From Candidatus Falkowbacteria bacterium (GTDB lineage: Bacteria > Patescibacteriota > Patescibacteriia > Patescibacteriales > SZUA-104): 36,542 bases of DNA. The notes beneath the pieces were generated by a model that did no database searches, was not told the DNA's origin, and saw only the letters and a list, made by a program, of their open reading frames with translations. Positions 3,001 to 30,881 of the stretch are shown in pieces. Position numbers and translations under genes: made by a program. Numbering within the stretch: the first letter of the stretch is position 1; each line of letters starts with the position of its first letter. Location of the stretch: assembly GCA_027020105.1 (NCBI GenBank), contig JALUVW010000077.1:1-36542 (forward strand), given 5' to 3'.

Positions 3001-5272
3001 CAAGATTATCGTCAAAATAAACACGGTGAGTCGTTCCTATTTGATCCTTGGTGGCATTGCCGAATCCGCTGCCGTAAATAGTCACGTATTGGCCCTGACT
3101 TCCTTTAATCGGGCTAAAAGAAGTGATTTGCGGGCCGGTTTTCGGTTCCGGCTTCTTCGTGAACCGCAAAAAATTACTGTTCACGTCTATATTGTTTTGT
3201 TTAATCGCCGTAAAGGCGGTGGTTTTTCCCGTTTGCATATTCGGCACATCGGCCGTTCCCTCCGTATCGCCGTTAAATACCGAGTTTAAAGCGTTGATAT
3301 TGTCAACGGCGCTGCCAAATTTCGCCGTGGCGCCGTTTAAGCCTATGCCGTAATAAGTGACGGTATCGTTCATTGCGCCGGCGTCCGGGTCCAACAGGCA
3401 AATCCCCGGGCGTTCAATGCCGTTAACAACAAAATCAAAATCCGGTCCCCGTCCGTCCGCGCTCCGCGTGCTGTCTGAAAATCCGTTATCGGCCGTAACC
3501 GTAATCGTTGTTCCCGGTCCGAGACTTAAACCGTCGGGAACGACAACGACTATTTGGTTGTCGCTCCAGCTACCGGAACAATTCTCGTTTACGGTATCCG
3601 CCAAACTGGCGGTAAACTCATTTACGCCATCGTTAAACACCACCGAACCGCTTCCTTGAATATCGTTAAAATATCGCCCGCCAATAGTCACTAAATTGCC
3701 GCTCGCTCCGTTGGGAGTGCCGGTGTCGCAAGTGGTTCCGCAGTCGCTGTCGTCTCGGCACGGCACGTTATTGTCGTCGTCGCAAAATCCGCCCGAAGGT
3801 TCAACCCAATCAATAATCGGAGCGTTTTGGCAAAGGCAGCAACTTGACACGTCCGCGCCGTATCCGCTCGCGGAACAAGCGTCAAGATCGGAGCCGGCGG
3901 AAGAACAAAATCCGGAAGCGCACAGATCGTCGCTGCAGCTTGTCGCCGGCATATTTTCCGCGTCAATGGCGCACGCCGATCCTTCACAGGCCCCGCATTC
4001 ACCTCCGCAGTCAACGCCCTCTTCTCCGTCGGCCGTGTCTTGGACCCCGTTACAGCAATGCGCCGCCTTAACGGTAATCGTTTTGTTGTCGCCCGCGCTG
4101 CGGCTGTCAATATCATAAGCGGTGGCGGTTATCGTTACCGCGTCTCCCGGAGCGTAACCGCTCGCGTCCCATAAAGTATTGGCGCTAAACGGCGAGTCGC
4201 CGTCGGAATTGACGACGGTGTCAATGCTCGCGCCGTCAGCCGAAAACTCTATGCTGTCCACGCCGCTATCATCGGCGCCGTTCGCCAGTAATTCATTGTC
4301 GGGAACGGCGCATATTTGCCCGAGGCCGAGATTTACCGTGGGGTCTTCGCAATCAATCAAATCTCCCACATTAAACGTGATGGAGCAATCCGTTCCCGAG
4401 CCGGGGCAAGACAGCTGAATGTCGCCCACGCTTAAAATGCCGGCCGGACCGTCAACCGCCGTGACCGTTACTTGCTCTCCGGCGTTGAAACAATTGGTTG
4501 CTCCGCACAAATTGCTTCCGCAATCTCCGTCCGGCGTAAATATGATTCGTTTTCCGTCAACTTCCCTGGTCCCGGGAATAGGATCCCCGTCCCCGTTTGT
4601 TACGGTAAAATTCGTGTCATCAATAAAATTGGTATCGCCGACATACAAATTAAAAGAATACCTGATTTTTATGTTTCTGATCACGTTGACATCGCCGTCG
4701 TTGGGGGAGGTGGAGCTAACGTTAAATTCCGGAGGAAAATCGCAAGAATCGGCGCACCCGAAAGAACAACACACTTCGGTCGCGTCGCAAGTGTAGCTGC
4801 AATCGGTCCATGATTCGTTTACGCAGGTTTGCGTTCCCAGATTGGCGCAGCCGCAAGTCTTGACCGCGCCATTCTCGCATAACCCGCCGGTAGCGGTCAA
4901 TAATTTATTCAGGACAAATGTGGTGGCGCCGAAAGAAAGCAAAATTATCAATAATCCGATTATGGCGCCGGACAACACTTTTCTGGCTTTGTCGATTTTT
5001 TCCATATTGCCGGCGGCGGACATCCAAAGCCAGCCGGCGTATATCGTCAGTCCCAAAGCGATAATACCCAAAAAGCCCAAGGCCACTCTGATAATATTGG
5101 CCGCCAATATCCGCGGATCTTCGCTTCCCAGACCTATGGTATTGCCGATTTCATTCTGCGTCCCGCCCCAAAGCAGATTATCGGCGCTTTGCGCCAAAGC
5201 GAAATTAACCGCGGCGGACATGGCTGTTAACACGAAAAATATGATTATTAAATTTTTTGTTTTTTTCAACAT
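1..5272 (-). CDS. Giant cysteine-rich cell-surface protein, partial (C-terminus lies beyond the left edge). Signal peptide plus two-TM TrbC/VirB2-like pilin-type hairpin, then SbsA/Big_5-like Ig domains, a disintegrin-like Cys motif, three IPT/TIG-like domains, a ~440-aa very Cys-rich region and a further Ig-like domain.
   Basis: It is absent from the ORF track only because it has no stop in the window. Hand translation of the minus strand from ATG 5272 (MLKKTKNLIIIFFVLTAMSAAVNFALAQSADNLLWGGTQNEIGNTIGLGSEDPRILAANIIRVALGFLGIIALGLTIYAGWLWMSAAGNMEKIDKARKVLSGAIIGLLIILLSFG...) stays open for 1,757 codons down to position 2. Recognisable pieces: CCNGVQDTADGEEGVDCGGECGAC (~4050-3980); IPT-like GTPNGASGNLVTIGGRYFND...SWSDNQIVVVVPDGL (~3720-3500); SPIKGSQGQYVTIYGSGFG...LWSDNQIIVKAPPG (~3110-2900); a third IPT-like unit at ~2760-2480; 62 Cys in ~440 aa between ~2460 and ~1140; SbsA_Ig-like ETVSPDNGAANVCRNSLVTVDFNQKMDVSSF (~1175-1060). 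The short ORFs listed at 241-5312 are other-frame or antisense shadows. Confidence 0.85.
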   Translation of the reverse strand, partial: MLKKTKNLIIIFFVLTAMSAAVNFALAQSADNLLWGGTQNEIGNTIGLGSEDPRILAANIIRVALGFLGIIALGLTIYAGWLWMSAAGNMEKIDKARKVLSGAIIGLLIILLSFGATTFVLNKLLTATGGLCENGAVKTCGCANLGTQTCVNESWTDCSYTCDATEVCCSFGCADSCDFPPEFNVSSTSPNDGDVNVIRNIKIRYSFNLYVGDTNFIDDTNFTVTNGDGDPIPGTREVDGKRIIFTPDGDCGSNLCGATNCFNAGEQVTVTAVDGPAGILSVGDIQLSCPGSGTDCSITFNVGDLIDCEDPTVNLGLGQICAVPDNELLANGADDSGVDSIEFSADGASIDTVVNSDGDSPFSANTLWDASGYAPGDAVTITATAYDIDSRSAGDNKTITVKAAHCCNGVQDTADGEEGVDCGGECGACEGSACAIDAENMPATSCSDDLCASGFCSSAGSDLDACSASGYGADVSSCCLCQNAPIIDWVEPSGGFCDDDNNVPCRDDSDCGTTCDTGTPNGASGNLVTIGGRYFNDIQGSGSVVFNDGVNEFTASLADTVNENCSGSWSDNQIVVVVPDGLSLGPGTTITVTADNGFSDSTRSADGRGPDFDFVVNGIERPGICLLDPDAGAMNDTVTYYGIGLNGATAKFGSAVDNINALNSVFNGDTEGTADVPNMQTGKTTAFTAIKQNNIDVNSNFLRFTKKPEPKTGPQITSFSPIKGSQGQYVTIYGSGFGNATKDQIGTTHRVYFDDNLGDAVDGVEASYDFPDICGDSLWSDNQIIVKAPPGLVNLTDYYIVIDVQGWDGPIDSSGIIPTATVDNTFKYDESLSLKPSLCKIQPTVGLNNSDISLWGEYFGEQATGLVRFHLNNDQSGTAITYWGPDGDAQRIDTTVHNNAVSGPVRVAQSGDEGNGINFTVGLCTEQDNSDDACGAQICCPPGTYKEGRCEATTDDCYVDISSSVYEWDFSTDAGGNVGDSCDLNDSTSLCEDDGSCGQGLICDPGTCTCQAPSTCSGYNLNQCQDTEFCPNSPGRCSPYPGGETVDMGGCSDADCDGVGACAAPSCAYNLNLNKCVDNTQGGCSLNSTAQDIFGKTVVKYCSEYNDGLNTYNVWHINTGASCPDGWIRASGDKCVDSVTADTCSLCDSGFVCFDDNDGDGEGVCGVDQDICLAGSVCNTLSERCEMTDEASCECCCEIGQDARDCCTGLVCAGTCGSDTTDDGSGFGECSGCRIEVGGVPDQALSDAACNCEGTSGKYCELNDADYPAGVCRDKISDCLPPNELCDDSSCCPTACEGPPGNTFCPTVCGPEEEECGTVCCSTASGGCLDADASLCANCAPEEYLCDDNVCCDVGCEGDAGETYCPAGPKIETVSPDNGAANVCRNSLVTVDFNQKMDVSSFNGNVIMVGNYGERLCPPGTEYLTVNNKGVADKAWMGIKRIIAKILSPIFPGARALSDNFCAISGTVSSVQNSDGNTTLTFSPKNLLDAKTAYYVIIKGDNNLDDDNNEGVLNYRGIGMADDWRDINGTNLTVSEGGTVDLIDRTFNGKEYYGYVWSFTTIDEQSPNSGICKIDHVNITPDSYLFKTTKDDIKENDANSGDDSFDTIKDRDKVFAAWAVSADGQSLSEVAGVYEWDWLWNSNNDAVVDLDPDSPFSADNYEQLYEAQQGITDNKAVISATADVSGSAEDGEEKYTGKANAWVFICENPWPPVTTNGLWEPWGDYFVCSDGSGRCPSTANLGDACGASGNCVENCTI

Positions 5273-5280
5273 TTTAATTA

Positions 5281-5397: not shown

Positions 5398-8016
5398 TTA
5401 TGGGCATTCGCTCCCGGCCGTCAACACCTCTCCGCAACAAGAAGGAAAAGCTTCCGTGGCCGCGCAATTCGGTCCGGCGCTCGGCTTAAAACAGTTTTGG
5501 TATATGTCTTTAACGCCGGAACCGACTTGCGAACGATAACTGGTCGCGTCGGAAAGCATTGAATGGTTAATCCGCGCCACCGTATAATCAGGGTATCCGT
5601 CCAAAGGGGGCGTATCAACGTTTTCTTTGGTAATCCAATAGCCGATCGGTTTGTTGTTGAAATTTCTGATATTTATCAATTTATGCTCAACCTTATTGTC
5701 GCCGTTGGACACCGTCTTGCTGCCGGTTTTCAAACTGTCCGACATCATCACCTTGCTGAAAGAAACCAATACCGGCTCGTTAAGAGAAACCCCCGAATAA
5801 TTATGTTCCGGTGAAATAAGATTGATTTTCGGCGGAGCCAAATCTATCGCGTCGCTAATATAAAACGACCACCGAAAATTATCCCCTCCCGGCCCTCCGG
5901 TATTTTCATTATAAAACGACACGGGAGCGTCGGCTTCTCCGTTTCTGTTGCCGTCCAATGAGTTGGAGGCGGTATCGGCAATTCCTTCCAACGGATAATT
6001 CGCGAGAGGATAATTTACGCCGTCTGAGTTTTGGCAAGCGTAGGAGGTTCCGACACTCGCGCAATTATTGTACGGCGTCTTATAAGCGCAATCGCTGTCG
6101 CCGGCGCATACGTCCAGCCGAGCGGCGACCATATCCACTTTTAAATTGGCGTTCTCCGGCAGGCAGTAAATCTTTTCTCCGCACCCGTTTACTCCGCATT
6201 GGTTGTCGGAGACAAACTCAACCGTTTTATAATTGTTGGAAACCGTAAAGCTGCCGCGAACGCAGACATCCGAACCGCAGTCAAAAAATTCCGAACCCGT
6301 ACAATCGCCGCTTACGCATTTTACGGCTATATAATCCTGCAAACTCTCGGCGTCGCCCGAAACCGTCAAAGGATTTACGGCTTCATTAAAGTTGATTTGT
6401 ATAACGGAGTTTCTCGGCTGATCCTTCTTGTCGTTTACGATGGTCGTCACTTCCCTGTCAGTTCCGCCGGACATGGGCGTTATGTCAATGGCGTCCGTAT
6501 TGCTGGTCGCCAACACAATATTGTTTCCGGAGCTGCCGGCGACTTTGGCGGTCACGAAAATTGAGCTTCCGGAGGTGACAAAACTGCCAAGAAGAGGATT
6601 TTTAACCAAAACGCCGGTAATATTGGACGCGGTCGCGGCCGTGGTTCCGCCAATGGCGATGTCCTCTCCGAAAACATAGGTTATATCGCCCGCGGTCAAT
6701 GTGTCCGCTTTTTGCTCGGCGGTGATGTCAACATTCCAAGAATTGCCGGCGCCGTAAGCGCCGTCGCCGGCAACGGTTAAGGTAAAATAACCCGGGAAAG
6801 TTACGGACGATCCGTTAAACGCGGCGGAACCGAGCAACACGCTTCCTTTGCTTAATTGCGCGGTTGAACCGTCCGATAAAATCGTAACCGTTAAAATTCC
6901 GCTCTCTTGATTGCCGCTGTCGGCAACCGCCTCGGCGTCGTTCCAATCGGCTCCCGACGGATTTTTGCCAACGCTCGCGACAACGGCGGGAACATAAACG
7001 TTCGGCTGGCCAACCACTCTTATGACGCCGCTTGCCGCCACGGCGTCGGTTATCGCGCCAACTTCGTCTTGCTCGTTGTCGGGCACGGGGAAAACGCCGC
7101 CTTCTTTAACTTGCGGCGGAGTCAGGTCCACTTTATTGCTGACTTTAAACTGCCACTCCATATAGTCGGCCGAACAAGTGGAGAAAATGCCGTTATTCGC
7201 GCCGCTCTTATCTCTTTTTTCTATTTCATTGGTTAAATGAACCGTATACCAAATATGCTCCGACGGCGAACCCAAATATTCAGTCGGAATAAAGACAAAA
7301 GTTTTATTGTCATTGGTGGCCACATTCACTTCAAGAACGTTTCCGTCGCAAGGGGGGCCGCAAGCGTCGCCGGCCGCGGTCTTGTAAATTCTGACATTTT
7401 CCGGAATTATATATTCTCCGGCATCGCAAACGCCGTTATTGTTGCCGCCCGCGTCATCGCAAAGAGTTGTCGGGTCAACCTCTTCCTTAAAAGTAATGAT
7501 AATGGCGGTGTTTCTCGGGACTTCTTCCTGGTTCGGCTCCGGATAAACGCTCTCAACCGTGCAACTCCCCAAGGCGCCGAGCCCCGTGCCCGCGTCGGGC
7601 GGACCGGCTCCCGGCCCCGGACCGCCGACTCTGGTCGCTCCCAAAAACTTGCTTAAAATAAACGTAACGATGCCGAACGACAACAAAATAATGGCCAGCC
7701 CGATAACCGCGTTTCTTAAAACTTGCTTGGCTTTTGTTATTCGCGATTCTTCGCCCCCCGAAGTCATCCAAAGAAATCCGGCATACATTATCAGGCCGAC
7801 AGCGATAATACCCAAGAAACCGATAAACACTCTGATTATTTTGGCCGCCAATATTCGCGGATCTTCGCTTCCCAACCCTATGGTGTTGCCGACTTCGTTC
7901 TGCGTCCCGCCCCAGAGCAAATTGTCCGCGCCTTGCGCCAAAGCGAAATTAACCGCGACGGACATGGCTGTCAACACGAAAAATATGACAATTAAATTTT
8001 TTGTTTTTTTTAGCAT
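5398..8016 (-). CDS. Large surface protein (872 aa), paralog of the giant gene. It has the same signal peptide and pilin-type two-TM hairpin, a Gly/Pro linker, several SbsA/Big_5-like Ig domains and Cys-rich segments.
   Basis: ORF-track protein. The N-terminus MLKKTKNLIVIFFVLTAMSVAVNFALAQ...IIRVFIGFLGIIAVGLIMYAGFLWMTSGGEESRITKAKQVLRNAVIGLAIILLSFGIVTFIL is ~75-80% identical to the first ~125 aa of the 1-5272 protein. Big_5-like segments: VESVYPEPNQEEVPRNTAIIITFKEEVDPTTL, DLTPPQV, DQPRNSVIQINFNEAVNPLTV, DLAPPKINLISPEHNYSGVSLNEPVLVSFSKVMMSDSL. Confidence 0.85.
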   Translation of the reverse strand: MLKKTKNLIVIFFVLTAMSVAVNFALAQGADNLLWGGTQNEVGNTIGLGSEDPRILAAKIIRVFIGFLGIIAVGLIMYAGFLWMTSGGEESRITKAKQVLRNAVIGLAIILLSFGIVTFILSKFLGATRVGGPGPGAGPPDAGTGLGALGSCTVESVYPEPNQEEVPRNTAIIITFKEEVDPTTLCDDAGGNNNGVCDAGEYIIPENVRIYKTAAGDACGPPCDGNVLEVNVATNDNKTFVFIPTEYLGSPSEHIWYTVHLTNEIEKRDKSGANNGIFSTCSADYMEWQFKVSNKVDLTPPQVKEGGVFPVPDNEQDEVGAITDAVAASGVIRVVGQPNVYVPAVVASVGKNPSGADWNDAEAVADSGNQESGILTVTILSDGSTAQLSKGSVLLGSAAFNGSSVTFPGYFTLTVAGDGAYGAGNSWNVDITAEQKADTLTAGDITYVFGEDIAIGGTTAATASNITGVLVKNPLLGSFVTSGSSIFVTAKVAGSSGNNIVLATSNTDAIDITPMSGGTDREVTTIVNDKKDQPRNSVIQINFNEAVNPLTVSGDAESLQDYIAVKCVSGDCTGSEFFDCGSDVCVRGSFTVSNNYKTVEFVSDNQCGVNGCGEKIYCLPENANLKVDMVAARLDVCAGDSDCAYKTPYNNCASVGTSYACQNSDGVNYPLANYPLEGIADTASNSLDGNRNGEADAPVSFYNENTGGPGGDNFRWSFYISDAIDLAPPKINLISPEHNYSGVSLNEPVLVSFSKVMMSDSLKTGSKTVSNGDNKVEHKLINIRNFNNKPIGYWITKENVDTPPLDGYPDYTVARINHSMLSDATSYRSQVGSGVKDIYQNCFKPSAGPNCAATEAFPSCCGEVLTAGSECP

Positions 8017-8035
8017 TGAATTTTTAGCATTAAAA

Positions 8036-11474: not shown

Positions 11475-11562
11475 TCTACCGATCTTTAGCTCGCCTTCGC
11501 CAGGTTTTAACCTGCCGAACAGCGGCTAAAGCCGCCCGAACCCTGGCCTGAAGGCCGGTAGA
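11475..11562. repeat. GC-rich palindromic element G1 (ggctaaagccgcc / cgaaccctggcct family)
   Basis: The outer arms pair: tctaccg...gccttcgccaggtt with aaccctggcctgaaggccggtaga. The 26-nt block cgaaccctggcctgaaggccggtaga recurs at 29075-29100 with one mismatch. Confidence 0.7.
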
Positions 11563-11971: not shown

Positions 11972-13159
11972 ATGAATAACAAAAATCAACAAATCCTTGA
12001 GGGTTCCAGGGCGATAGCTTTAACCATTAACAACATTGGGCCGGCTGTCATTTCCGCCTACCCGATCACCCCGCAAACCCATATCGTGGAGGACTTGGCC
12101 AAATTCAAGGCGGACGGAGACGCCGATTACGAATACGCGCGGGCGGAAAGCGAATTCGCGGCGGCCTCTATTGTGGAGGGAGCGAGCGCCGCCGGCGCGC
12201 GCGTCTATACCGCGACCAGTTCGCAAGGACTGCTTTTAATGGCGGAGGTATTGTTTAATATCGCCGGTATGCGCTTGCCGATCGTGGTGACCTGCGCCAA
12301 CCGCGGCGTTTCCGCGCCGATTACGATTTGGAACGACCAGCAAGACGCGATGACCATCCGCGACGCCGGCTGGATACAAATGTTCGCCGAAAACCATCAA
12401 GAAGCGGTTGACCAGCATATTATGGCCTACAAAATCGCCGAGCAAACGAATCTGCCGGTTATGGTCAATATTGACGGCTTTGTTTTAACGCATTCTTACG
12501 AACCGGTTATTATTCCCACCAGAGCGCAAATCAAAAAATACCTGCCGGATTATAAACCTAAAAAGGGACAATATTTGGACCCGGCCAATCCGGTTACCCT
12601 CGGCGCCTTCGCCCGACCCCAGCATTATATGGAAATCCGCCAAGACCTGCATAATGACCTGATGTCCAGTCTCAATTTAATTAACAAAGAGTATATTAAA
12701 TATAGAAAAACAATAAAAACAATGAAGTCCGACATCGGGTGCCCGATGTCGGACTTCGGAGCGGAAAATAACGGCTTAGTTGAATACTACGGCCCCAAAA
12801 AGCCTAAAATCATCTTAGTGGCGATGGGCTCGGTTATCGGAACGATAAAGGAAGTGGCGGATAAAACAAAAGGCGTCGGCGCGCTAAAAATAAAGACTTA
12901 CCGCCCGTTCCCCGAAGACGCGATTTTCAATATTTTAAAAAAGGCCAAATACGTGGCCGTTTTGGACAAATCCATATCGCTGGGGCATATCGGGCCGTTG
13001 GCTTCCGACATTAAATCGGCAATGCAGGGGAAAATCAAGGCTAAAATCCAAAGCTTTATAGTCGGATTGGGAGGACGGGATATTACGAAGGAAATGATTG
13101 GGGGAATTGTTAGGGAAGTTAAGAAAGGGGATGGTGGGGTGAAATTTATCGGGAAATAG
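11972..13159 (+). CDS. porA: PFOR alpha subunit
   Basis: 395 aa. AVISAYPITPQTHIVEDLA...YTATSSQGLLLMAEVLFNIAGMRLPIVV is typical of porA/korA alpha subunits. Confidence 0.9.
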   Translation: MNNKNQQILEGSRAIALTINNIGPAVISAYPITPQTHIVEDLAKFKADGDADYEYARAESEFAAASIVEGASAAGARVYTATSSQGLLLMAEVLFNIAGMRLPIVVTCANRGVSAPITIWNDQQDAMTIRDAGWIQMFAENHQEAVDQHIMAYKIAEQTNLPVMVNIDGFVLTHSYEPVIIPTRAQIKKYLPDYKPKKGQYLDPANPVTLGAFARPQHYMEIRQDLHNDLMSSLNLINKEYIKYRKTIKTMKSDIGCPMSDFGAENNGLVEYYGPKKPKIILVAMGSVIGTIKEVADKTKGVGALKIKTYRPFPEDAIFNILKKAKYVAVLDKSISLGHIGPLASDIKSAMQGKIKAKIQSFIVGLGGRDITKEMIGGIVREVKKGDGGVKFIGK

Positions 13160-15559: not shown

Positions 15560-16546
15560 ATGCCTATGAAGCCAACAATGTCTAAAGTAAAAACAAAACA
15601 ACTATTATCCCCCGGCCATACCGCTTGCGCCGGATGCGGACAAATGATTGCCGCGAGAACCGTTGCCCAAGCGCTGGGACCGAACACTATTATCGCCAAC
15701 GCCACCGGCTGCCTTGAAGTGACGACAACCGCCTATCCTATGAGCTCGTGGGGAATGCCGTGGATACACTCCTTGTTTGAAAACGCGTCCGCCGTCGCCT
15801 CGGGAATAAAAGCGGCGTTGAAATATAAAGAGACTAAGTCTCCAATTGGAGACTTAGTCTCCACGCCTAAAGTTGTCGCCCAAGGCGGAGACGGAGGAAC
15901 TTTTGACATCGGCTTCGGCTTGATTTCCGGAATGTGGGAGCGAGGCGATGATATTCTCTATATCTGTTACGACACCGAAGCGTATTCCAATACCGGCATA
16001 CAAGCCTCCGGCGCCACCCCCTGGGCGGCGTCCACCACCACGACTCCGTCCGGTAAATGTATGAGTAAAACGAAGTCCGGTTTCGGCGGAGCGGATGAAG
16101 ATTGCCCGATTGACGCGATCGGCTCGCATCAAAGAAAAAAGGATATGATCGCCATCGCTTTGGCGCACAGATTGCGTTACGTGGCGCAAAGCACCGCCGG
16201 CTTCCCGGATGATATTGCCGCCAAGGTTAAAAAAGCCTTAACCTTTAAGGGTCCGAAATATATCCAAATTATGGCTCCCTGCGTGCCGGGATGGAAAATA
16301 AGTTCCGCGCAGGCGGTGCGGATAGGAAAATTGGCCGCCCAAACCGGACTTTACCCGCTCCTGGAGTATGAAAACGGACAACTGACGAATGTTCTAAAAG
16401 TCCCGAAACCGCGTCCGAAAGTGGATGAATACCTTAAACTGCAAGGCCGATTCGCGCATCTCTTTAAGAATAAAAGCGGAAAAAAGCAAATTGCCTATAT
16501 ACAAAAATTAGCTGACGGGAATATTGAGAAGTATGGTTTAAAATAG
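15560..16546 (+). CDS. porB: PFOR beta subunit (TPP-binding), carrying an in-frame 51-bp palindromic element
   Basis: Motifs GHTACAGCG, GGDGGTFDIGF and YDTEAYSNTG. Residues KYKETKSPIGDLVSTPK are encoded by 15821-15871. Confidence 0.9.
   Translation: MPMKPTMSKVKTKQLLSPGHTACAGCGQMIAARTVAQALGPNTIIANATGCLEVTTTAYPMSSWGMPWIHSLFENASAVASGIKAALKYKETKSPIGDLVSTPKVVAQGGDGGTFDIGFGLISGMWERGDDILYICYDTEAYSNTGIQASGATPWAASTTTTPSGKCMSKTKSGFGGADEDCPIDAIGSHQRKKDMIAIALAHRLRYVAQSTAGFPDDIAAKVKKALTFKGPKYIQIMAPCVPGWKISSAQAVRIGKLAAQTGLYPLLEYENGQLTNVLKVPKPRPKVDEYLKLQGRFAHLFKNKSGKKQIAYIQKLADGNIEKYGLK
15821..15871. repeat. 51-bp palindromic element, in-frame copy inside porB
   Basis: aaatataaagagactaagtctccaattggagacttagtctccacgcctaaa is the exact reverse complement of 30831-30881. 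The core GAGACTAAGTCTCCAATTGGAGACTTAGTCTC is a perfect 32-nt palindrome. The element is 17 codons and starts in frame (15821-15560 = 261). Confidence 0.95.
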
Positions 16547-24960: not shown

Positions 24961-25025
24961 GCCCCCGTGGGGGCGAACACCGTTCGCCCCCACTAACCGT
25001 CGCCCCGATTGCGGGCGGTTCCGGG
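24961..25025. repeat. GC-rich hairpin cluster G4 downstream of murE
   Basis: GGGGGCGAAC-acc-GTTCGCCCCC (10-bp stem) and CGCCC-cgattg-CGGGCG. Confidence 0.6.
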
Positions 25026-26697: not shown

Positions 26698-27718
26698 AAA
26701 ACGTTCTCCTGACTCTCCTCACCATCTTATAAACATTATACCACCCCTCGTCAAAAACCAAATCAAAGGTCCCCGGATAATTTGCCGTTCTGCCGCCGAA
26801 TCCCTTCTTAAATCTTGTTACCCCCGGCCATCTCTCTTCGTCTATGCCGTAGAGGTCGTAATATTTATACCCTGATTTTTTCGCCAATTTCATCACGTGC
26901 CATTGAAGTAAATACGAAGCCATCGCGTTGCGATACTCCGAGCCGGACGCGCCATGCGTATAGGTCGCGGTATCGCCGAAAAACGAAACAATGCCGGCGG
27001 CAATCGGCCTTTTTTTGTATTCGGCGATAAATAGTTTTATCGCCAAAGCGGGCCCCGCGGATTCGCGAACTCGCGAATCCTCGTCCCCTCCGGCCAGCAT
27101 CGCCTTATAATAATCCCTGCCGTGAGTGCGGAAATTGTCCCTCTCGCTTGTTTCTCCAAGCAGCCGCCAAAAATCTTCAAAACGATCAACTCCGGCTTCA
27201 ACAACCTTCACGCCCTTTTTTTCCGCCAATCTAATATTGTATCTGGTTTTTTGGCGCATATTCTTCAAAATATCCTCTTCCGGCTTGGCCAAATTCAATA
27301 TCAATGTCTTGCTTGGCTGAACATCAAGGGTCTTGTTTAGCTTGTAGCTTGTAGCTTGTAGCTTGTAGGAAGCGGGCGGGTCAAACCTTAAAAACATAAT
27401 ACCCTCGTTTTCCGCGATATTCTTAATTTCATTAAACAAGCTTTCTAAAATTAGTTGATAATTGACGGTTGATAATTGATAATTGAATACCGGCCCCCGC
27501 GGGCAATAAAAATAATATTTGCCTATCGGCAACTGCTTTTTGATGATAGTGGCGGCGGCGACCAGTTTACCGTCATCCAAAACACCCAGACGCCAAACAT
27601 CCCCGCTCACCTTTTTGTGAAACTCGCCCCATTCCCAAGACTGCAAAAACTGGCTGTGCTTTTGCGCCGCGACAAAATTATTATACTGTTTTTTATCCGT
27701 AATGTTGATTACTCGCAT
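26696..27718 (-). CDS. FemAB-family peptidoglycan interpeptide-bridge aminoacyltransferase (FemX/MurM-like), with two in-frame heptamer arrays
   Basis: FLQSWEWGEFHKK, YFYCPRGPVF, RYNIRLAEKKGV, YYDLYGI and RFKKGFGG are typical of FemAB proteins. Low-complexity NYQLSTVNYQLI and ASYKLQATSYKL are encoded by tandem 7-mers. Confidence 0.8.
   Translation of the reverse strand: MRVINITDKKQYNNFVAAQKHSQFLQSWEWGEFHKKVSGDVWRLGVLDDGKLVAAATIIKKQLPIGKYYFYCPRGPVFNYQLSTVNYQLILESLFNEIKNIAENEGIMFLRFDPPASYKLQATSYKLNKTLDVQPSKTLILNLAKPEEDILKNMRQKTRYNIRLAEKKGVKVVEAGVDRFEDFWRLLGETSERDNFRTHGRDYYKAMLAGGDEDSRVRESAGPALAIKLFIAEYKKRPIAAGIVSFFGDTATYTHGASGSEYRNAMASYLLQWHVMKLAKKSGYKYYDLYGIDEERWPGVTRFKKGFGGRTANYPGTFDLVFDEGWYNVYKMVRRVRRTF
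27339..27368. repeat. Tandem heptamer array (agcttgt x4) inside the FemAB-family gene
   Basis: agcttgt agcttgt agcttgt agcttgt agg encodes ...ASYKLQATSYKL.... A related caagctacaagcta lies in the intergenic spacer at 31588-31601. Confidence 0.9.
27455..27489. repeat. Tandem heptamer array (ttgataa-type x5) inside the FemAB-family gene
   Basis: ttgataa ttgacgg ttgataa ttgataa ttgaata encodes ...FNYQLSTVNYQLI.... Confidence 0.9.
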
Positions 27719-27747
27719 ATATTTTACTTTAAGTTCCCGCGGATATT

Positions 27748-27860
27748 AGGGGGGGATAAACACCCCCTTGATAAAGGAACCTGCCTTCCGTAGAGACGAG
27801 GCACTGCCTCGTCTCTACGGCGAAGGAAGGGTTGGCCCCGCCTTTCGCGAAAGGCGGGGT
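27748..27860. repeat. GC-rich palindrome cluster G5 upstream of the FemAB-family gene
   Basis: Three palindromes: gggggataaacaccccc; a 33-nt palindrome CCGTAGAGACGAGGCAcTGCCTCGTCTCTACGG (27788-27820); and a perfect 24-nt palindrome CCCCGCCTTTCGCGAAAGGCGGGG (27836-27859). Confidence 0.85.
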
Positions 27861-27940
27861 TGGGGAATTATTAATTTTTAATTTTAATTGGAAATTGAAA
27901 ATCATTACTTGTTTGAAAATTGAAAATTTCGCTATCACTC

Positions 27941-27974: not shown

Positions 27975-28113
27975 TGAAATTCACAAAAAGGAGGTGATGC
28001 CTTTGAGGGCACGCATAGTCGATAATCATAATTAAAACACAATCGACAGGTCCCGGCCCTATCTTAATCTCTTGTGAATCCAATACCTGTTAAGAGATAA
28101 GATAGGGCCTTTT
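27975..28113 (+). ncRNA. Candidate ~140-nt structured small RNA, or a leader with a 10-12 codon mini-ORF
   Basis: It is bounded by the promoter at 27941-27968 and the terminator at 28055-28119. It contains AAAGGAGGTGAT (27987-27998) and the hairpin GTCGAT-N18-ATCGAC. The 5' segment ATTCACAA and the upstream ACAGGT are each complementary to the terminator loop (TTGTGAAT, ACCTGT). No downstream plus-strand gene follows. Confidence 0.4.
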
Positions 28114-28994: not shown

Positions 28995-29100
28995 CCCCCG
29001 GCCCCTCCCCTCGCGAGAGGAGGGGCGGGGTTCGGGCGGCTTTAGCCGCGTACCGTTACGAAGCTAAAGCTTCACGAACCCTGGCCTAAAGGCCGGTAGA
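28995..29100. repeat. GC-rich palindromic element G6 (same family as G1)
   Basis: cccccggcccctcccctcgcgagaggaggggcgggg, then ttcgggcggctttagccgcg (an inverted copy of the G1 core), then cgaaccctggcctaaaggccggtaga. Confidence 0.75.
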
Positions 29101-29160
29101 AACCGCTTAAATATCTAATTAAATATCTAAAACTTGCTATTTTATTTAATCTGATAATCG

Positions 29161-29312
29161 CCAAATTCAAAATTACAAATTCCAAATAAATTCAAAGCGC
29201 TAAATTAAAAATTTAAAACAGTTTTGAATCCCCGATCAAGTTAAGGATAAGTTTTGAAAATTTAAATTTGTGATTTATTTGGAATTTGTGATTTTGAATT
29301 TGGAATTTAGTT
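29161..29312. repeat. AT-rich inverted-repeat element E12 (caaattc-type heptamers), abutting the U32 gene stop
   Basis: Left arm caaattcaaaattacaaattccaaataaattcaa (29162-29195). Right arm aaatttgtgatttatttggaatttgtgattttgaatttggaattt (29263-29308). Confidence 0.85.
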
Positions 29313-29313
29313 A

Positions 29314-30747
29314 TTACATTTTTCTCCTAACAACGCTAAACTCCGGAATCTCAACATTACTCTCAATAACCACAACCTTCCCCTGTCCTCCGTGCGCTTC
29401 TTCCAGCTCTTCGCCCGTTTCCGCGTCAACCATGCTTTTCAGCTTCATCTTTATTATATCATATCCCGGCATAATAATCTCAATCCTGTCTCCAACCTTT
29501 AAAGTATTATGAATTTTAATATTAACGGAATGCTTTGTTTTTTTATTTTTGCCCGCCCCTCGGAGCCTTGGCGCGGCGGGGCGTTTTGCTGTTTTTTCGC
29601 CGATAACCGCCCCGCAAAACTCCCACTCCGGCGTTTTATGCGAATTGTCCAAGTTCTGCGCCATTTTTCCGTTCCCGAACATAAATCCCTCCGTATATCC
29701 CCGATGATATAATTTCTCATCCAATTCTTTGTGCAGAAAATCTATATCCCCCTCGTAGAGACGAGGCAGTGCCTCGTCTCGGCGGCGGCAAGACGAACAA
29801 CGGAGACGAGGCAGTGCCTCGTCTCTACAAACTGCGTCTATCGCTTTTCTGTAAGCCCCGACCACGCAAGCCAAATAATAAACGCTCTTGGCCCTGCCCT
29901 CAATTTTAAACGAAGAAATGCCGGCGTCAACCATTTCCGGAATTCTTTTTATCAAGCACAAATCATTGGAATTCAAGATATACGACCCATGCTCCTCCTC
30001 AACCAACTCCAACGCCTCATCTCTGCCTTCCGCTTTTATAAATATCTCTTGGCTGTAATTTTGAACATTTGGATTTTGAATTTTGAATTTATTTGGAATT
30101 TGTAATTTTGAATTTGTAATTTTCGCGTTATACTTCCACCTGCACGGCTGAACGCAGTCGCCTAGATTGGCGCTCCTTCCCGTAAACAATTTTGACAAAA
30201 AACATCGCCCGGAATAAGCCATGCACATCGCGCCATGAACAAACGCCTCTATTTCCAGTTTCGGGTTGCTTTTCTTGATTTCTTTAATTTCGCGAATCGT
30301 TGTTTCCCGCCCCAACACAATCCGTTTAAATCCCTGTTCAAACCAAAACTTAGCCGCCTCCTTATTCACGCAGTTCGCCTGCGTTGACAAATGCATTTTA
30401 GCGCTCGGCCAAACCTTTCTAATCGCCATCATAACGCCCGGATCCGAAACAATAAACCCGTCCGGCTTTGCTTTTTTCAGCTCTCTGACATACGCCGGCA
30501 ATTTTTTGAAGTGTTTGTTGTGGGCGAAAATATTTATTGTTACGTAAACCTTTTTATTGATATTGTGGGCGTATTCAATCGCCTTCTTCAAGCTTTTGAC
30601 ATCAAAATCATTTATCCTTACTCGCAGGGAAAAATCCGGAATGCCCGCGTACACCGCGTCCGCCCCGAACGCGAAAGCCGTTTTCATTTTTTCAAAATTT
30701 CCGGCCGGCGCTATTAATTCCGGTTTTTCGTTTTTTTTATTGTTCAT
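29314..30747 (-). CDS. Peptidase U32 family protein (YegQ/TrhP/RlhA-like), carrying several in-frame repeat-element insertions
   Basis: KPELIAPAGNFEKMKTAFAFGADAVYAG, EAFVHGAMCMAYSGRCFLS, CVQPCRWKY and SFKIEGRAKSVYY. The start at ATG 30747 (MNNKKNEKPELIAPAG) is preferred to the track's 30813. Confidence 0.85.
   Translation of the reverse strand: MNNKKNEKPELIAPAGNFEKMKTAFAFGADAVYAGIPDFSLRVRINDFDVKSLKKAIEYAHNINKKVYVTINIFAHNKHFKKLPAYVRELKKAKPDGFIVSDPGVMMAIRKVWPSAKMHLSTQANCVNKEAAKFWFEQGFKRIVLGRETTIREIKEIKKSNPKLEIEAFVHGAMCMAYSGRCFLSKLFTGRSANLGDCVQPCRWKYNAKITNSKLQIPNKFKIQNPNVQNYSQEIFIKAEGRDEALELVEEEHGSYILNSNDLCLIKRIPEMVDAGISSFKIEGRAKSVYYLACVVGAYRKAIDAVCRDEALPRLRCSSCRRRDEALPRLYEGDIDFLHKELDEKLYHRGYTEGFMFGNGKMAQNLDNSHKTPEWEFCGAVIGEKTAKRPAAPRLRGAGKNKKTKHSVNIKIHNTLKVGDRIEIIMPGYDIIKMKLKSMVDAETGEELEEAHGGQGKVVVIESNVEIPEFSVVRRKM
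29755..29828. repeat. Two copies of the GTAGAGACGAGGCA-TGCCTCGTCTCTAC palindrome inside the U32 gene
   Basis: gtagagacgaggcagtgcctcgtctc (29755-29780) and gagacgaggcagtgcctcgtctctac (29803-29828) encode ...RDEALPRLRCSSCRRRDEALPRLY.... The same palindrome lies in an intergenic spacer at 27788-27820. Confidence 0.9.
30083..30116. repeat. Single arm of the E12 AT-rich element inside the U32 coding sequence
   Basis: ttgaatttatttggaatttgtaattttgaatttg is the exact 34-nt reverse complement of 29162-29195. It encodes part of KITNSKLQIPNKFKIQNPNVQNY. Confidence 0.9.
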
Positions 30748-30830
30748 AAAGAGATTATCGCCTAATGGGGCTGTTGCCGAATGCCGTTGCGAGTAAAATT
30801 TTTGAATCCCCAATCAAGTTTTTAGGCGTG

Positions 30831-30881
30831 GAGACTAAGTCTCCAATTGGAGACTTAGTCTCTTTATATTTGCAAAAAGAC
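30831..30881. repeat. 51-bp palindromic element, intergenic copy (exact inverted copy of 15821-15871)
   Basis: tttaggcgtggagactaagtctccaattggagacttagtctctttatattt. Confidence 0.95.

What the first reader, a model, noticed from the sequence alone, without database searches (positions are those of the whole stretch)
29545..30124. U32-family gene carries at least three repeat-derived in-frame insertions, including a 34-nt arm complementary to its own 3' flank
Three insertions lie inside the U32 coding sequence:
1. 30083-30116 is an exact 34-nt inverted copy of the left arm of element E12 (29162-29195), which lies just past the stop codon. It encodes KITNSKLQIPNKFKIQNPNVQNY between the conserved CRWKY and GSYILNS blocks.
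2. 29755-29828 holds two copies of the palindrome GTAGAGACGAGGCAgTGCCTCGTCTCTAC, also found in an intergenic spacer at 27788-27820. They encode RDEALPRLRCSSCRRRDEALPRLY.
3. 29545-29600 is a further GC-rich stretch (KRPAAPRLRGAGKNKK).

The frame stays open throughout. The mRNA could also form a 34-bp duplex between the coding region and the 3' UTR ~900 nt away. That duplex is a potential RNase III substrate or translational control element.
Basis: seen in the sequence. Interest (0 to 1): 0.65.

Follow-up and report, generated by a model that had tools for sequence, protein, structure and literature searches.

The report
Selfish hairpin repeats inside U32 gene
A tRNA-hydroxylase-like (U32 family) gene of a Patescibacteria (CPR) bacterium stays intact although three surface loops carry extra DNA; two pieces are copies of small mobile hairpin repeats that litter this genome, a known phenomenon (as in Rickettsia) seen here in a new lineage.

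Summary
The 477-aa U32 gene (29314-30747, minus strand) is 69 aa longer than its shortest syntenic ortholog (408 aa). The excess lies in three loops (29 + 21 + 19 aa).

- **Insert 1 (30040-30126)** is the A-rich arm of a ~115-130-nt AT-rich hairpin element. Its terminal 25-mer occurs exactly in more than 119 metagenome contigs.
- **Insert 2 (29755-29828)** is a 74-nt REP doublet with GTAG...CTAC feet, a "double-foot" REP. This type is linked to RAYT transposases and is already known to sit in frame inside genes.
- **Insert 3 (about 29536-29592)** is a real lineage-specific insertion, but I could not show that it derives from a repeat.

Across 120 orthologs the same three loops vary in length and hold different repeat types. 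The gene is under purifying selection (dN/dS 0.11-0.19), and AlphaFold2 gives these segments low confidence.

At least three other genes in the window (PFOR alpha, PFOR beta, FemAB-like) carry in-frame palindromes.

The 35-nt complementarity to the 3' flank is exact, and a naked 1-kb RNA folds into that duplex. However, both copies sit near the family consensus and the pairing is absent from orthologs, so it is most likely a by-product.

Verdict: a new member of a known kind, of moderate interest.

The parts
29314..30747 (-). U32-family gene (477 aa), TrhP-like. It has Peptidase_U32 and Peptidase_U32_C domains and the Fe-S cysteine motifs CMAYSGRC and CVQPC.
   Evidence: ORF. Pfam PF01136 at 276 bits and PF16325 at 37.8 bits. 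Best NCBIfam match is TrhP at 384 bits, below the 534-bit cut-off. dN/dS against orthologs is 0.11-0.19.
30040..30126 (-). Insert 1: 29 extra codons (residues 208-236, AKITNSKLQIPNKFKIQNPNVQNYSQEIF). It lies just after the last Fe-S cysteine, between two beta strands.
   Evidence: Absent from L126 and from 12 of 120 orthologs; site length ranges from 1 to 47 aa. AF2 pLDDT is below 50 at residues 213-232, between strands E206-211 and E234-239.
30053..30122 (-). The 70-nt part of insert 1 that is the A-rich arm, from the terminus to the start of the loop, of the AT-rich hairpin element family. It has no self-structure.
   Evidence: It starts with the 25-mer AAATTACAAATTCAAAATTACAAAT, found exactly in more than 119 metagenome contigs. 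It has 2 mismatches in 45 to the family consensus. MFE is 0 kcal/mol.
30082..30116 (.). The 35 nt that are exactly complementary to 29162-29196, the distal arm of the flank element.
29162..29308 (.). The distal arm is 29162-29218 and the proximal arm is 29261-29308.
   Evidence: RNA fold -39.5 kcal/mol, z -6.3. Arm relationships (I13, D3). A related contig, L174, has the same family element directly after its U32 stop.
29755..29828 (-). Insert 2: a 74-nt REP doublet (REPIN-like). Its layout is GTAG foot, 23-nt palindromic core, 22-nt spacer, 23-nt core, CTAC foot. It encodes (C)RDEALPRLRCSSCRRRDEALPRLY between two helices.
   Evidence: The 33-bp hairpin folds at -53.8 kcal/mol, z -7.6. AF2 pLDDT is below 50 at residues 310-327, between H289-307 and H327-345. 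L126 lacks it.
27790..27818 (.). Intergenic single copy of the same double-foot REP: GTAGAGACGAGGCACTGCCTCGTCTCTAC.
   Evidence: Fold -36.8 kcal/mol, z -6.8.
24967..24993 (.). A second double-foot REP type, GTGG...CCAC (GTGGGGGCGAACACCGTTCGCCCCCAC), in an intergenic position.
29536..29592 (-). Insert 3: about 19 extra codons (TAKRPAAPRLRGAGKNKKT) in a loop of the C-terminal beta domain. It is GC-rich and its origin is unassigned.
   Evidence: L126 has 14 aa here against 33 in the window; the site ranges from 14 to 47 aa in orthologs. There is no repeat match and the fold z-score is 0.4. AF2 pLDDT is below 50 at residues 389-401.
15821..15871 (+). The same phenomenon in another gene. A 51-nt palindromic element lies in frame in the PFOR beta-subunit gene (KYKETKSPIGDLVSTPK). 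It is 100% identical, in inverted orientation, to the intergenic copy at 30821-30871 just upstream of U32.
   Evidence: (I10). It aligns as a gap against PDB 9bt4_C.
12724..12757 (+). The same phenomenon: a perfect 16-bp hairpin in frame in the PFOR alpha-subunit gene (KSDIGCPMSDFG).
   Evidence: It aligns as a gap against PDB 9bt4_B.
27047..27091 (-). The same phenomenon: a palindrome in frame in the FemAB-like gene (GGDEDSRVRESAGPA). Orthologs vary in length at this site.

Best explanation
The U32 (TrhP-like) gene is a functional gene. Three structurally permissive surface loops have been colonised by small non-coding hairpin repeats that populate this Patescibacteria genome. Only insertions that keep the frame, avoid stop codons and encode hydrophilic or disordered peptides survive selection.

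**Insert 2** is a doublet of a GTAG...CTAC 'double-foot' REP. This class of hairpin is thought to be mobilised on single-stranded DNA by REP-associated tyrosine transposases (RAYT / TnpA_REP, subclass 2.4). It is read in one of the two stop-free frames; the third frame contains the TAG of the foot.

**Insert 1** is one arm of a ~115-130-nt AT-rich hairpin (MITE-like) element. Only the A-rich arm is kept, in sense orientation. The T-rich arm would give stop codons in two frames and a hydrophobic peptide in the third.

**Insert 3** is an older or unrelated loop expansion.

The exact complementarity between insert 1 and the 3' flank is a side effect of two near-consensus copies of one family lying near each other.

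What is shown and what is inferred:
- Shown: insertion status, family membership of inserts 1 and 2, recurrence at the same loops, purifying selection, and loop location in a model.
- Inferred: RAYT-mediated spread in this genome, translation of the inserts, and loss of the second arm.
For: **Insertion status**
- 477 aa against 408 aa in the compact syntenic locus L126. The excess is exactly 29 + 21 + 19 aa at three sites.
- Among 120 orthologs these sites range over 1-47, 10-46 and 14-47 aa, while the flanks are invariant.

**Insert 2 is a REP**
- It has GTAG/CTAC feet, a 14-bp stem and an intergenic twin.
- Its architecture matches the 'double foot' REPs of TnpA_REP subclass 2.4. These are reported to insert in frame in genes (PMC6006769). 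Intragenic GTAG REP dimers encoding 20-30 aa have also been described (PMC3733652).
- The same outer stem GTAGAGACG/CGTCTCTAC, with compensated inner stems, occurs in more than 120 genomes of several phyla. 30 of 130 copies lie in stop-free stretches of at least 250 aa, and never in the TAG frame.
- Orthologs L124, L125 and L174 carry GTAGAGACG REPs at site 3 instead of site 2.

**A RAYT is present in relatives**
- The contig of ortholog P0007 (L002) encodes a RAYT directly upstream of its U32 gene (NHIH, WQ, YITDNP motifs; Pfam Y1_Tnp 28.2 bits; NCBIfam REP_Tyr_transpos 70 bits). The gene has its own 29-nt double-foot REP inserted in frame and a partial copy upstream.
- About 3000 homologs were found. 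Many of the best-scoring ones that carry a source name come from Patescibacteria, and some are named RayT.

**Insert 1 belongs to a family**
- The 25-mer terminus occurs in more than 119 metagenome contigs. Upstream flanks are unrelated.
- Where a copy lies in a long ORF, the A-rich strand is the sense strand in 22 cases against 2.

**The gene is functional**
- dN/dS is 0.11-0.19 and every column invariant in the 30-sequence alignment is kept.
- The three inserts coincide with AF2 low-confidence connectors between secondary-structure elements.

**The phenomenon is genome-wide**
- In-frame palindromes occur in the PFOR alpha, PFOR beta and FemAB-like genes.
- An independent assembly (L003, 99.9% identical) carries the same inserts.
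Against: - No RAYT gene lies in the 36.5-kb window, and the rest of the genome is not available. Mobilisation in this organism is inferred from relatives.
- No target-site duplication or parent transposase was found for the AT-rich family, so how a single arm entered the gene is unknown.
- Insert 3 matches no repeat.
- Translation of the inserts is inferred from frame preservation, not observed.
- The window and L002 share the first ~31 nt of insert 1 at the same codon position (30/31 identical, although dS is 1.69). A simple single-insertion history does not explain this.
Confidence: 0.8

Rival explanations
1. The insert-1 copy and the distal arm of the 3'-flank element form a ~35-bp long-range duplex in the U32(-ruvA) transcript. 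This duplex is selected as an RNase III site or a translational control element.
For: The complementarity is exact over 35 nt. The duplex energy is -45.4 kcal/mol, against -38.9 for the proximal arm. The MFE and partition function of the naked 1-kb RNA pair the CDS copy with the distal arm: 33.8 expected base pairs against 0 for the local pairing. No terminator-like site separates the stop codon from the element. U32-ruvA adjacency is conserved, so both are probably on one transcript.
Against: Both partners lie near the consensus of a family present in more than 119 contigs, so complementarity needs no special selection. Orthologs L001 and L002 have no CDS/flank complementarity. The proximal arm is ~65 nt away in untranslated RNA and would pair first during transcription, whereas the CDS copy is translated. 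The duplex is AU-rich. The REP doublet inside the CDS (33 bp, -53.8 kcal/mol) is a better dsRNA substrate, and nobody would argue that it is there for that reason.
Confidence: 0.07
2. The inserted peptides have been exapted. The loops were extended because the extra, mostly hydrophilic or charged segments serve the enzyme (partner or RNA binding), with repeats merely providing the raw material.
For: The same three loops are extended in most orthologs. Insert 1 sits right after the Fe-S cysteine motif. Inserts 2 and 3 are rich in Arg and Lys, which could contact RNA in a tRNA-modifying enzyme (inference).
Against: Sequence, length and repeat class at each site differ between close relatives, and 408-420-aa orthologs lack the inserts altogether. 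AF2 confidence is below 50 in all three. Unrelated genes in the same genome show the same thing.
Confidence: 0.08
3. Artefact or decay. The segments are metagenome mis-assemblies at repeats, or the gene is a pseudogene whose open frame is coincidental.
For: The window comes from an uncultured organism, and repeats are classic sites of assembly error.
Against: An independent ENA assembly (L003) is 99.9% identical across the gene and carries all three inserts. All three inserts are multiples of 3 and stop-free. dN/dS is 0.11-0.19. Orthologs from many samples show the same pattern.
Confidence: 0.03

Closest known systems
Intragenic GTAG-tagged REPs / REPINs and their RAYT (TnpA_REP) transposases, especially the 'double-foot' REPs of subclass 2.4 (PMC6006769; PMC3733652; PMC3116915)
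   Same: Insert 2 has the GTAG 5' foot and CTAC 3' foot, a fully paired GC-rich stem, a short loop and doublet organisation forming a long hairpin. It has an intergenic twin and is inserted in frame, encoding ~25 aa. The literature describes dimers encoding 20-30 aa inside genes, and REPs inside RAYT genes that keep the frame. A related contig carries exactly such a RAYT, with its own REP inserted in frame.
   Different: The host is a Patescibacteria (Falkowbacteria-like) bacterium, a lineage not covered in those surveys. The RAYT of this organism was not seen. The host gene here is a TrhP-like U32 enzyme, not one of the DNA-repair genes highlighted before.
Rickettsia palindromic elements (RPE) in protein-coding genes (Ogata et al. 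2000, 2002, as cited in PMC10969869 and PMC3733652)
   Same: Palindromic selfish repeats are inserted in frame into many unrelated housekeeping genes. They are compatible with protein fold and function and encode extra surface peptides. The same gene can be hit more than once.
   Different: There is no evidence of sequence relationship. The host phylum differs. RPEs are inserted as whole ~100-150-bp palindromes, whereas insert 1 here is only one arm and insert 2 is a short REP doublet.
Bacterial MITEs (e.g. Nezha, Correia/NEMIS, ERIC; review PMC10969869)
   Same: The AT-rich family is 115-130 nt long, has inverted arms and defined termini, has no coding capacity, is present in many copies and is mostly intergenic.
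   Different: No target-site duplication and no parent IS were found. The arms are built from ~7-nt A-rich periods. The copy in U32 is a half element.
Cyanobacterial small dispersed repeats (SDR; Elhai et al. 2008). Recalled from memory; only cited as ref. 43 in PMC3116915, and the paper itself was not held.
   Same: Very small hairpin repeats that can nest inside other sequences, including conserved ones.
   Different: This is not tested here. It is a lead, not a comparison.

Membership tests
Peptidase U32 family (TrhP/RlhA/UbiU-type Fe-S enzymes) | Peptidase_U32 domain and U32 C-terminal domain above the Pfam cut-offs | tested here: met
   PF01136 at 276 bits (cut-off 22.4) and PF16325 at 37.8 bits (cut-off 28.2). 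Foldseek finds the U32 structure 5d88 and the U32 C-domain 4he6.
Peptidase U32 family (TrhP/RlhA/UbiU-type Fe-S enzymes) | Equivalog-level assignment to TrhP | tested here: not met
   NF011996 scores 384 bits against a cut-off of 534. The gene is therefore 'TrhP-like', not TrhP.
REP / REPIN (GTAG-tagged, double-foot type) | GT[AG]G tetranucleotide at the 5' foot of the hairpin, and C[TC]AC at the 3' end for the double-foot type | tested here: met
   GTAG at 29755 and CTAC ending at 29828. The intergenic copy at 27790-27818 has both feet. The definition is taken from PMC6006769.
REP / REPIN (GTAG-tagged, double-foot type) | Fully paired basal stem of 7-20 nt, GC-rich, with a loop of 2-5 nt | tested here: met
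   The single copy has a 14-bp stem and a 1-3-nt loop, -36.8 kcal/mol, z -6.8. The doublet has a 33-bp stem, -53.8 kcal/mol.
REP / REPIN (GTAG-tagged, double-foot type) | Two REPs forming one larger hairpin (REPIN) | tested here: met
   26-nt arms at 29755-29780 and 29803-29828 are 96% complementary with 22 nt between them.
REP / REPIN (GTAG-tagged, double-foot type) | High copy number in the genome, mainly extragenic | tested here: inconclusive
   Only 36.5 kb is available. It holds 3 copies of this core (1 intergenic, 2 in the CDS) plus one GTGG...CCAC type. Across other phyla, 77% of GTAGAGACG copies lie outside stop-free stretches of 250 aa or more.
REP / REPIN (GTAG-tagged, double-foot type) | Cognate RAYT gene in the same genome, flanked by the REP | not testable with these tools
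In the related contig L002 a RAYT lies next to U32 with its own double-foot REP inside the gene and a partial copy upstream. RAYT homologs are common in Patescibacteria.
Rickettsia palindromic elements (RPE) | Sequence membership in RPE families 1-10 of Rickettsia | not tested
   No RPE sequences were at hand. The host is Patescibacteria and the sequences are of a different type. This is treated as a functional analogy only.
Rickettsia palindromic elements (RPE) | In-frame insertion in unrelated housekeeping genes at positions compatible with the fold | tested here: met
   U32, PFOR alpha, PFOR beta and FemAB-like genes.
MITE (for the AT-rich hairpin family of insert 1) | Terminal inverted repeats, 70-300 bp, non-coding, multicopy | tested here: met
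   31 full-length copies of 90-170 nt with inverted ends. More than 119 contigs carry the exact terminal 25-mer.
MITE (for the AT-rich hairpin family of insert 1) | Target-site duplications and a related autonomous IS whose transposase recognises the ends | tested here: not met
   No direct repeat was seen in the 12-nt flanks of 31 full-length copies. No parent IS was identified.

The most novel reading that the evidence does not exclude
Repeat copies embedded in coding loops may not be dead fossils. They may be active members of the repeat populations, kept near the family consensus by re-insertion or gene conversion. The evidence for this is that 30 of 31 nt are shared with an ortholog at dS 1.69, and that a PFOR-beta insert is 100% identical to an intergenic copy.

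In CPR bacteria, a few permissive loops per protein would then be re-colonised again and again by unrelated hairpin families. The embedded hairpins, and their pairing with flank copies, would tie expression of housekeeping genes (here U32-ruvA) to RNase III or ribosome-pausing effects.
Probability: 0.12. Interest if true: 0.6.

Novelty: new member of a known kind. Interest (0 to 1): 0.38.

Why it matters
This extends the 'selfish DNA inside protein-coding genes' phenomenon, known from Rickettsia RPEs and from intragenic REPs in Proteobacteria and others, to Patescibacteria (CPR).

- **Annotation and structure prediction.** CPR proteins often look longer and more 'decorated' than their homologs. 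Part of that may be hairpin repeats sitting in loops.
- **Protein engineering.** The three loops of the U32/TrhP-like fold are naturally mapped as sites that tolerate insertions.
- **Repeat biology.** A widespread GTAGAGACG double-foot REP family and an abundant AT-rich hairpin family appear not to have been described for this lineage, and are pointed out here.
- **Metagenome scans.** Exact long-range complementarity between a gene and its flank can arise without any function.

Tried and rejected
- A PDB sequence search with the U32 protein found nothing. Structure comparison only recovered the generic TIM-barrel/U32 fold.
- Rfam at gathering thresholds found only one tRNA in the window and no family for any repeat.
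- The promoter/terminator scan gave no more sites than shuffles, and no terminator between the U32 stop and the flank element.
- tblastn with the L002 RAYT found no RAYT in the window.
- A literature search for the strings GTAGAGACG and CGTCTCTAC returned only unrelated primer sequences. The Elhai 2008 paper on SDRs is not held.
- A search for papers linking CPR or Patescibacteria with RAYT, REPIN or MITE listed only general REP/RAYT/MITE papers among its top 15 results, none mentioning CPR or Patescibacteria.
- I looked for target-site duplications around full-length AT-rich elements and saw none.
- I looked for any copy of insert 3 in the window and in 1.7 Mb of fetched loci. Only A/T-run flank matches turned up.
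- I considered introns, inteins and translational bypass. These are rejected because all inserts are multiples of three and stop-free, and the REP is never in the frame containing TAG. That pattern is expected only if the inserts are translated.
- I considered in-situ growth of low-complexity linkers. This is rejected for inserts 1 and 2 because of exact identity to dispersed copies. It remains possible for insert 3.
Full report
**1. Observation**

The gene is an intact 477-codon ORF on the minus strand, 29314-30747. It carries Pfam Peptidase_U32 (276 bits) and Peptidase_U32_C. Its best NCBIfam match is the tRNA U34 hydroxylase TrhP, below the equivalog cut-off.

- **Inverted copy.** 30083-30116 is the exact reverse complement of 29162-29195, extendable to 35 nt. 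No shuffle of the window gives such a match.
- **Palindrome.** The core GAGACGAGGCANTGCCTCGTCTC occurs at 29758 and 29803 in the CDS and at 27793 in an intergenic spacer. The chance expectation is 0.
- **GC-rich stretch.** The stretch encoding KRPAAPRLRGAGKNKK lies at 29539-29586.

Two corrections apply. First, the arm complementary to the CDS copy is the distal arm of the flank hairpin. The arm beside the stop codon (29261-29308) is a same-sense, diverged copy. Second, the two palindrome copies share one GTAG foot and one CTAC foot and fold as a single 33-bp hairpin (-53.8 kcal/mol, z -7.6).

**2. These are insertions**

The closest homologs are U32 proteins of Falkowbacteria and other Patescibacteria, 405-511 aa long. 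In alignments of 30 and of 120 orthologs the conserved blocks are nearly invariant. Three internal sites, plus the N-terminus, vary in length:

| Site | Position | Length range |
|---|---|---|
| 1 | after CRWKY | 1-47 aa |
| 2 | after AYRKAID | 10-46 aa |
| 3 | after WEFCG | 14-47 aa |

The syntenic locus L126 (U32-ruvA-FemAB-Mur ligase, with genes abutting or overlapping) encodes a 408-aa protein without any insert. The window protein exceeds it by 29 + 21 + 19 = 69 aa, at 30040-30126, around 29755-29828 and around 29536-29592.

An AlphaFold2 model built on the ortholog alignment (pTM 0.78) gives pLDDT below 50 at residues 213-232, 310-327 and 389-401. Each segment is a connector between secondary-structure elements.

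The conserved part is under purifying selection (dN/dS 0.11-0.19 against four orthologs; the fifth comparison, with L126, was saturated at synonymous sites). An independent assembly (L003, 99.9% identical) has the same inserts. The gene is therefore real and was functional at least until recently.

**3. Insert 2 is a double-foot REP doublet**

The unit GTAGAGACGAGGCA-N-TGCCTCGTCTCTAC begins with GTAG and ends with CTAC. Quentin et al. (PMC6006769) define REPs by a GT[AG]G guide tetranucleotide at the foot of a fully paired stem. They describe 'double foot' REPs (GT[AG]G ... [quoted passage not shown] These REPs are found inserted in the RAYT genes themselves without breaking the frame. Di Nocera et al. 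(PMC3733652) list intragenic GTAG REPs in several species; more than half are dimers or grouped repeats encoding 20-30 aa. REP doublets forming hairpins are the REPINs of Bertels and Rainey (PMC3116915).

- **Distribution.** They come from Bacteroidota, Cyanobacteria, Chloroflexota, Spirochaetota, Omnitrophota and others.
- **Not chance.** In most hits the inner 10-11 nt are themselves perfectly palindromic but differ between genomes, so the matches are not chance.
- **Position relative to genes.** 30 of 130 copies lie in stop-free stretches of at least 250 aa, compared with 258 of 357 random positions. They use only the two frames that avoid the TAG of the foot.
- **Same REP, different site.** Within the U32 orthologs, L124 has a perfect GTAGAGACGCGCCGCGGCGCGTCTCTAC at site 3 (VETRRGASLR). 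L125 has a decayed copy there. The closer relative L174 has a doublet there. The same REP family has therefore entered different loops of this gene in different lineages.
- **A RAYT in a relative.** Contig L002 (ortholog P0007) encodes a RAYT directly upstream of its U32. It has NHIH, WQ and YITDNP motifs, Pfam Y1_Tnp above cut-off, and NCBIfam REP_Tyr_transpos at 70 bits. It carries a 29-nt double-foot REP (GTAGGAACAGGGCACTGCCCTGTTCCTAC) in frame between the HuH and Tyr motifs, and a partial copy upstream.
- **RAYTs in Patescibacteria.** The search returned about 3000 homologs of this RAYT. Many of the best-scoring ones that carry a source name are from Patescibacteria, and some sources call them RayT.
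- **Gap in the evidence.** No RAYT lies in the window itself.

**4. Insert 1 is one arm of an AT-rich hairpin element**

Nearly every spacer of the window holds an AT-rich imperfect palindrome with ~60-nt arms. The U32 copy starts with AAATTACAAATTCAAAATTACAAAT.

Their upstream flanks are unrelated, so it marks the element's terminus.
- Full-length copies are 90-170 nt hairpins. I saw no target-site duplication.
- Only 22 of 121 copies lie in long stop-free stretches on the A-rich strand, and 2 on the T-rich strand. This fits a translation filter: the A-rich strand reads K/N/Q/I/T/S/P, while the T-rich arm gives stop codons in two frames and hydrophobic residues in the third (read directly from the sequence).
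- The U32 copy (30053-30122) covers the arm from its terminus to the start of the loop and has no self-structure.

**5. The complementarity to the 3' flank**

The CDS copy differs from the family consensus at 2 of 45 positions, and the distal flank arm matches the consensus core. The proximal arm has 6 mismatches. One caveat: the first 25 nt of that consensus are fixed by the query.

A closer relative (L174; its ruvA product is 84.5% identical to the window's RuvA) has an element of this family directly after its U32 stop. Its arm is identical to the window's CDS copy. L001 and L002 show no CDS/flank complementarity.

Thermodynamically the long-range duplex is favoured in a naked 1-kb RNA: -45.4 against -38.9 kcal/mol, and the MFE uses it. 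My reasons are that the pairing is not conserved, needs no selection to arise, competes with a nearby untranslated partner, and involves a translated segment.

**6. Insert 3**

This is an insertion relative to short orthologs. It has no other copy anywhere I could search and folds no better than shuffles. Its origin is open.

**7. The phenomenon is genome-wide**

- A 51-nt palindromic element in the PFOR beta gene (15821-15871) is 100% identical to the intergenic copy at 30821-30871.
- A perfect 16-bp hairpin sits in the PFOR alpha gene (12724-12757).
- Both of these align as gaps against PDB 9bt4.
- The FemAB-like gene has a palindrome at a site where its orthologs also vary.

Unrelated repeat classes occupy the same loops of U32 in different lineages. 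The hot spots are therefore better explained by what the protein tolerates than by DNA target preference (inference).

**8. Unexplained**

The window and L002 share the first 31 nt of insert 1 at the same codon position, with 30 of 31 identical. The genes overall are 71% identical in nucleotides and dS is 1.69. The probability of such a match under uniform divergence is about 2e-4. This needs re-insertion at the same spot or gene conversion from genomic copies. I could not decide between the two.

**9. Verdict**

The insertion reading is supported for all three segments, and a repeat origin for two of them. The regulatory duplex is probably a by-product. This is a new member of a known kind (RPE-like and intragenic-REP-like selfish DNA in coding genes), found in a lineage where I found no report of it in one literature search.

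Noticed in passing
window 15821-15871 and 30821-30871: A 51-nt palindromic element (AAATATAAAGAGACTAAGTCTCCAATTGGAGACTTAGTCTCCACGCCTAAA) is 100% identical between an in-frame position in the PFOR beta-subunit gene and the spacer just upstream of U32, in opposite orientation. This suggests a very recent copy event.
   Followed up: partly
window 27985-27997 versus L003 10338-10459: The near-identical assembly L003 has 121 extra nt here, flanked by a 13-nt direct repeat AAAAAGGAGGTGA (a Shine-Dalgarno-like sequence followed by a short ORF). This is an indel polymorphism between two otherwise 99.9% identical sequences.
   Followed up: partly
window 29224-29240 and 30802-30818: The 17-mer TTGAATCCCC(G/A)ATCAAG occurs only twice in the window, as direct repeats on either side of the U32 gene. 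One copy is in the loop of the flank hairpin and one is ~55 nt upstream of the start codon. Three of 100 shuffles gave 2 or more matches.
   Followed up: no
L002 421-1023: A RAYT (REP-associated tyrosine transposase) gene lies directly upstream of the U32 ortholog. It has a 29-nt double-foot REP inserted in frame (VGTGHCPVPT) between the HuH and Tyr motifs, and a partial copy ~35 nt upstream of its start.
   Followed up: yes
L001 4290-4370 (N-terminus of ortholog P0002); also P0014, P0025, P0030: An N-terminal insertion of a small GC hairpin (27 nt) is flanked by an 18-nt direct duplication of the target (KPELIA...KPELIA). Similar ELLAP...ELLAP duplications occur in other orthologs. Such a long target duplication is unusual and hints at a different insertion mechanism.
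   Followed up: no
Genome-contig loci L004-L123: The outer stem GTAGAGACG/CGTCTCTAC is conserved across Bacteroidota, Cyanobacteria, Chloroflexota and other phyla. The inner 4-5 bp vary with perfect compensation, and total length is fixed at 28-29 nt. This implies recognition of the foot by a conserved protein.
   Followed up: partly
window 5021-5273 and 7765-8017: 253 nt at the 5' end of the 872-aa gene (5398-8016, minus strand) are 86% identical to a stretch at 5021-5273, which lies in a region (1-5273) with no ORF longer than 156 aa listed (ORFs that run off a window end are not listed). This may be a paralogous N-terminus (signal peptide/TM) shared with a gene running off the window's start; I did not establish a reading frame there.
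   Followed up: no
window 27719-27880 and 28996-29101: The spacers contain chains of different GC-rich palindromes, for example CCCCGCCTTTCGCGAAAGGCGGGG at 27836-27859. A 39-nt repeat also occurs at 11525, 29063 and 34927. The same spacers in L126 are absent or a few nt long.
   Followed up: no
window 27335-27373 and 27449-27484: The FemAB-like gene contains short tandem codon-level repeats (SYKLQATSYKL from CTACAAG x4; NYQLSTVNYQL) where orthologs have unrelated sequence of nearly the same length.
   Followed up: partly
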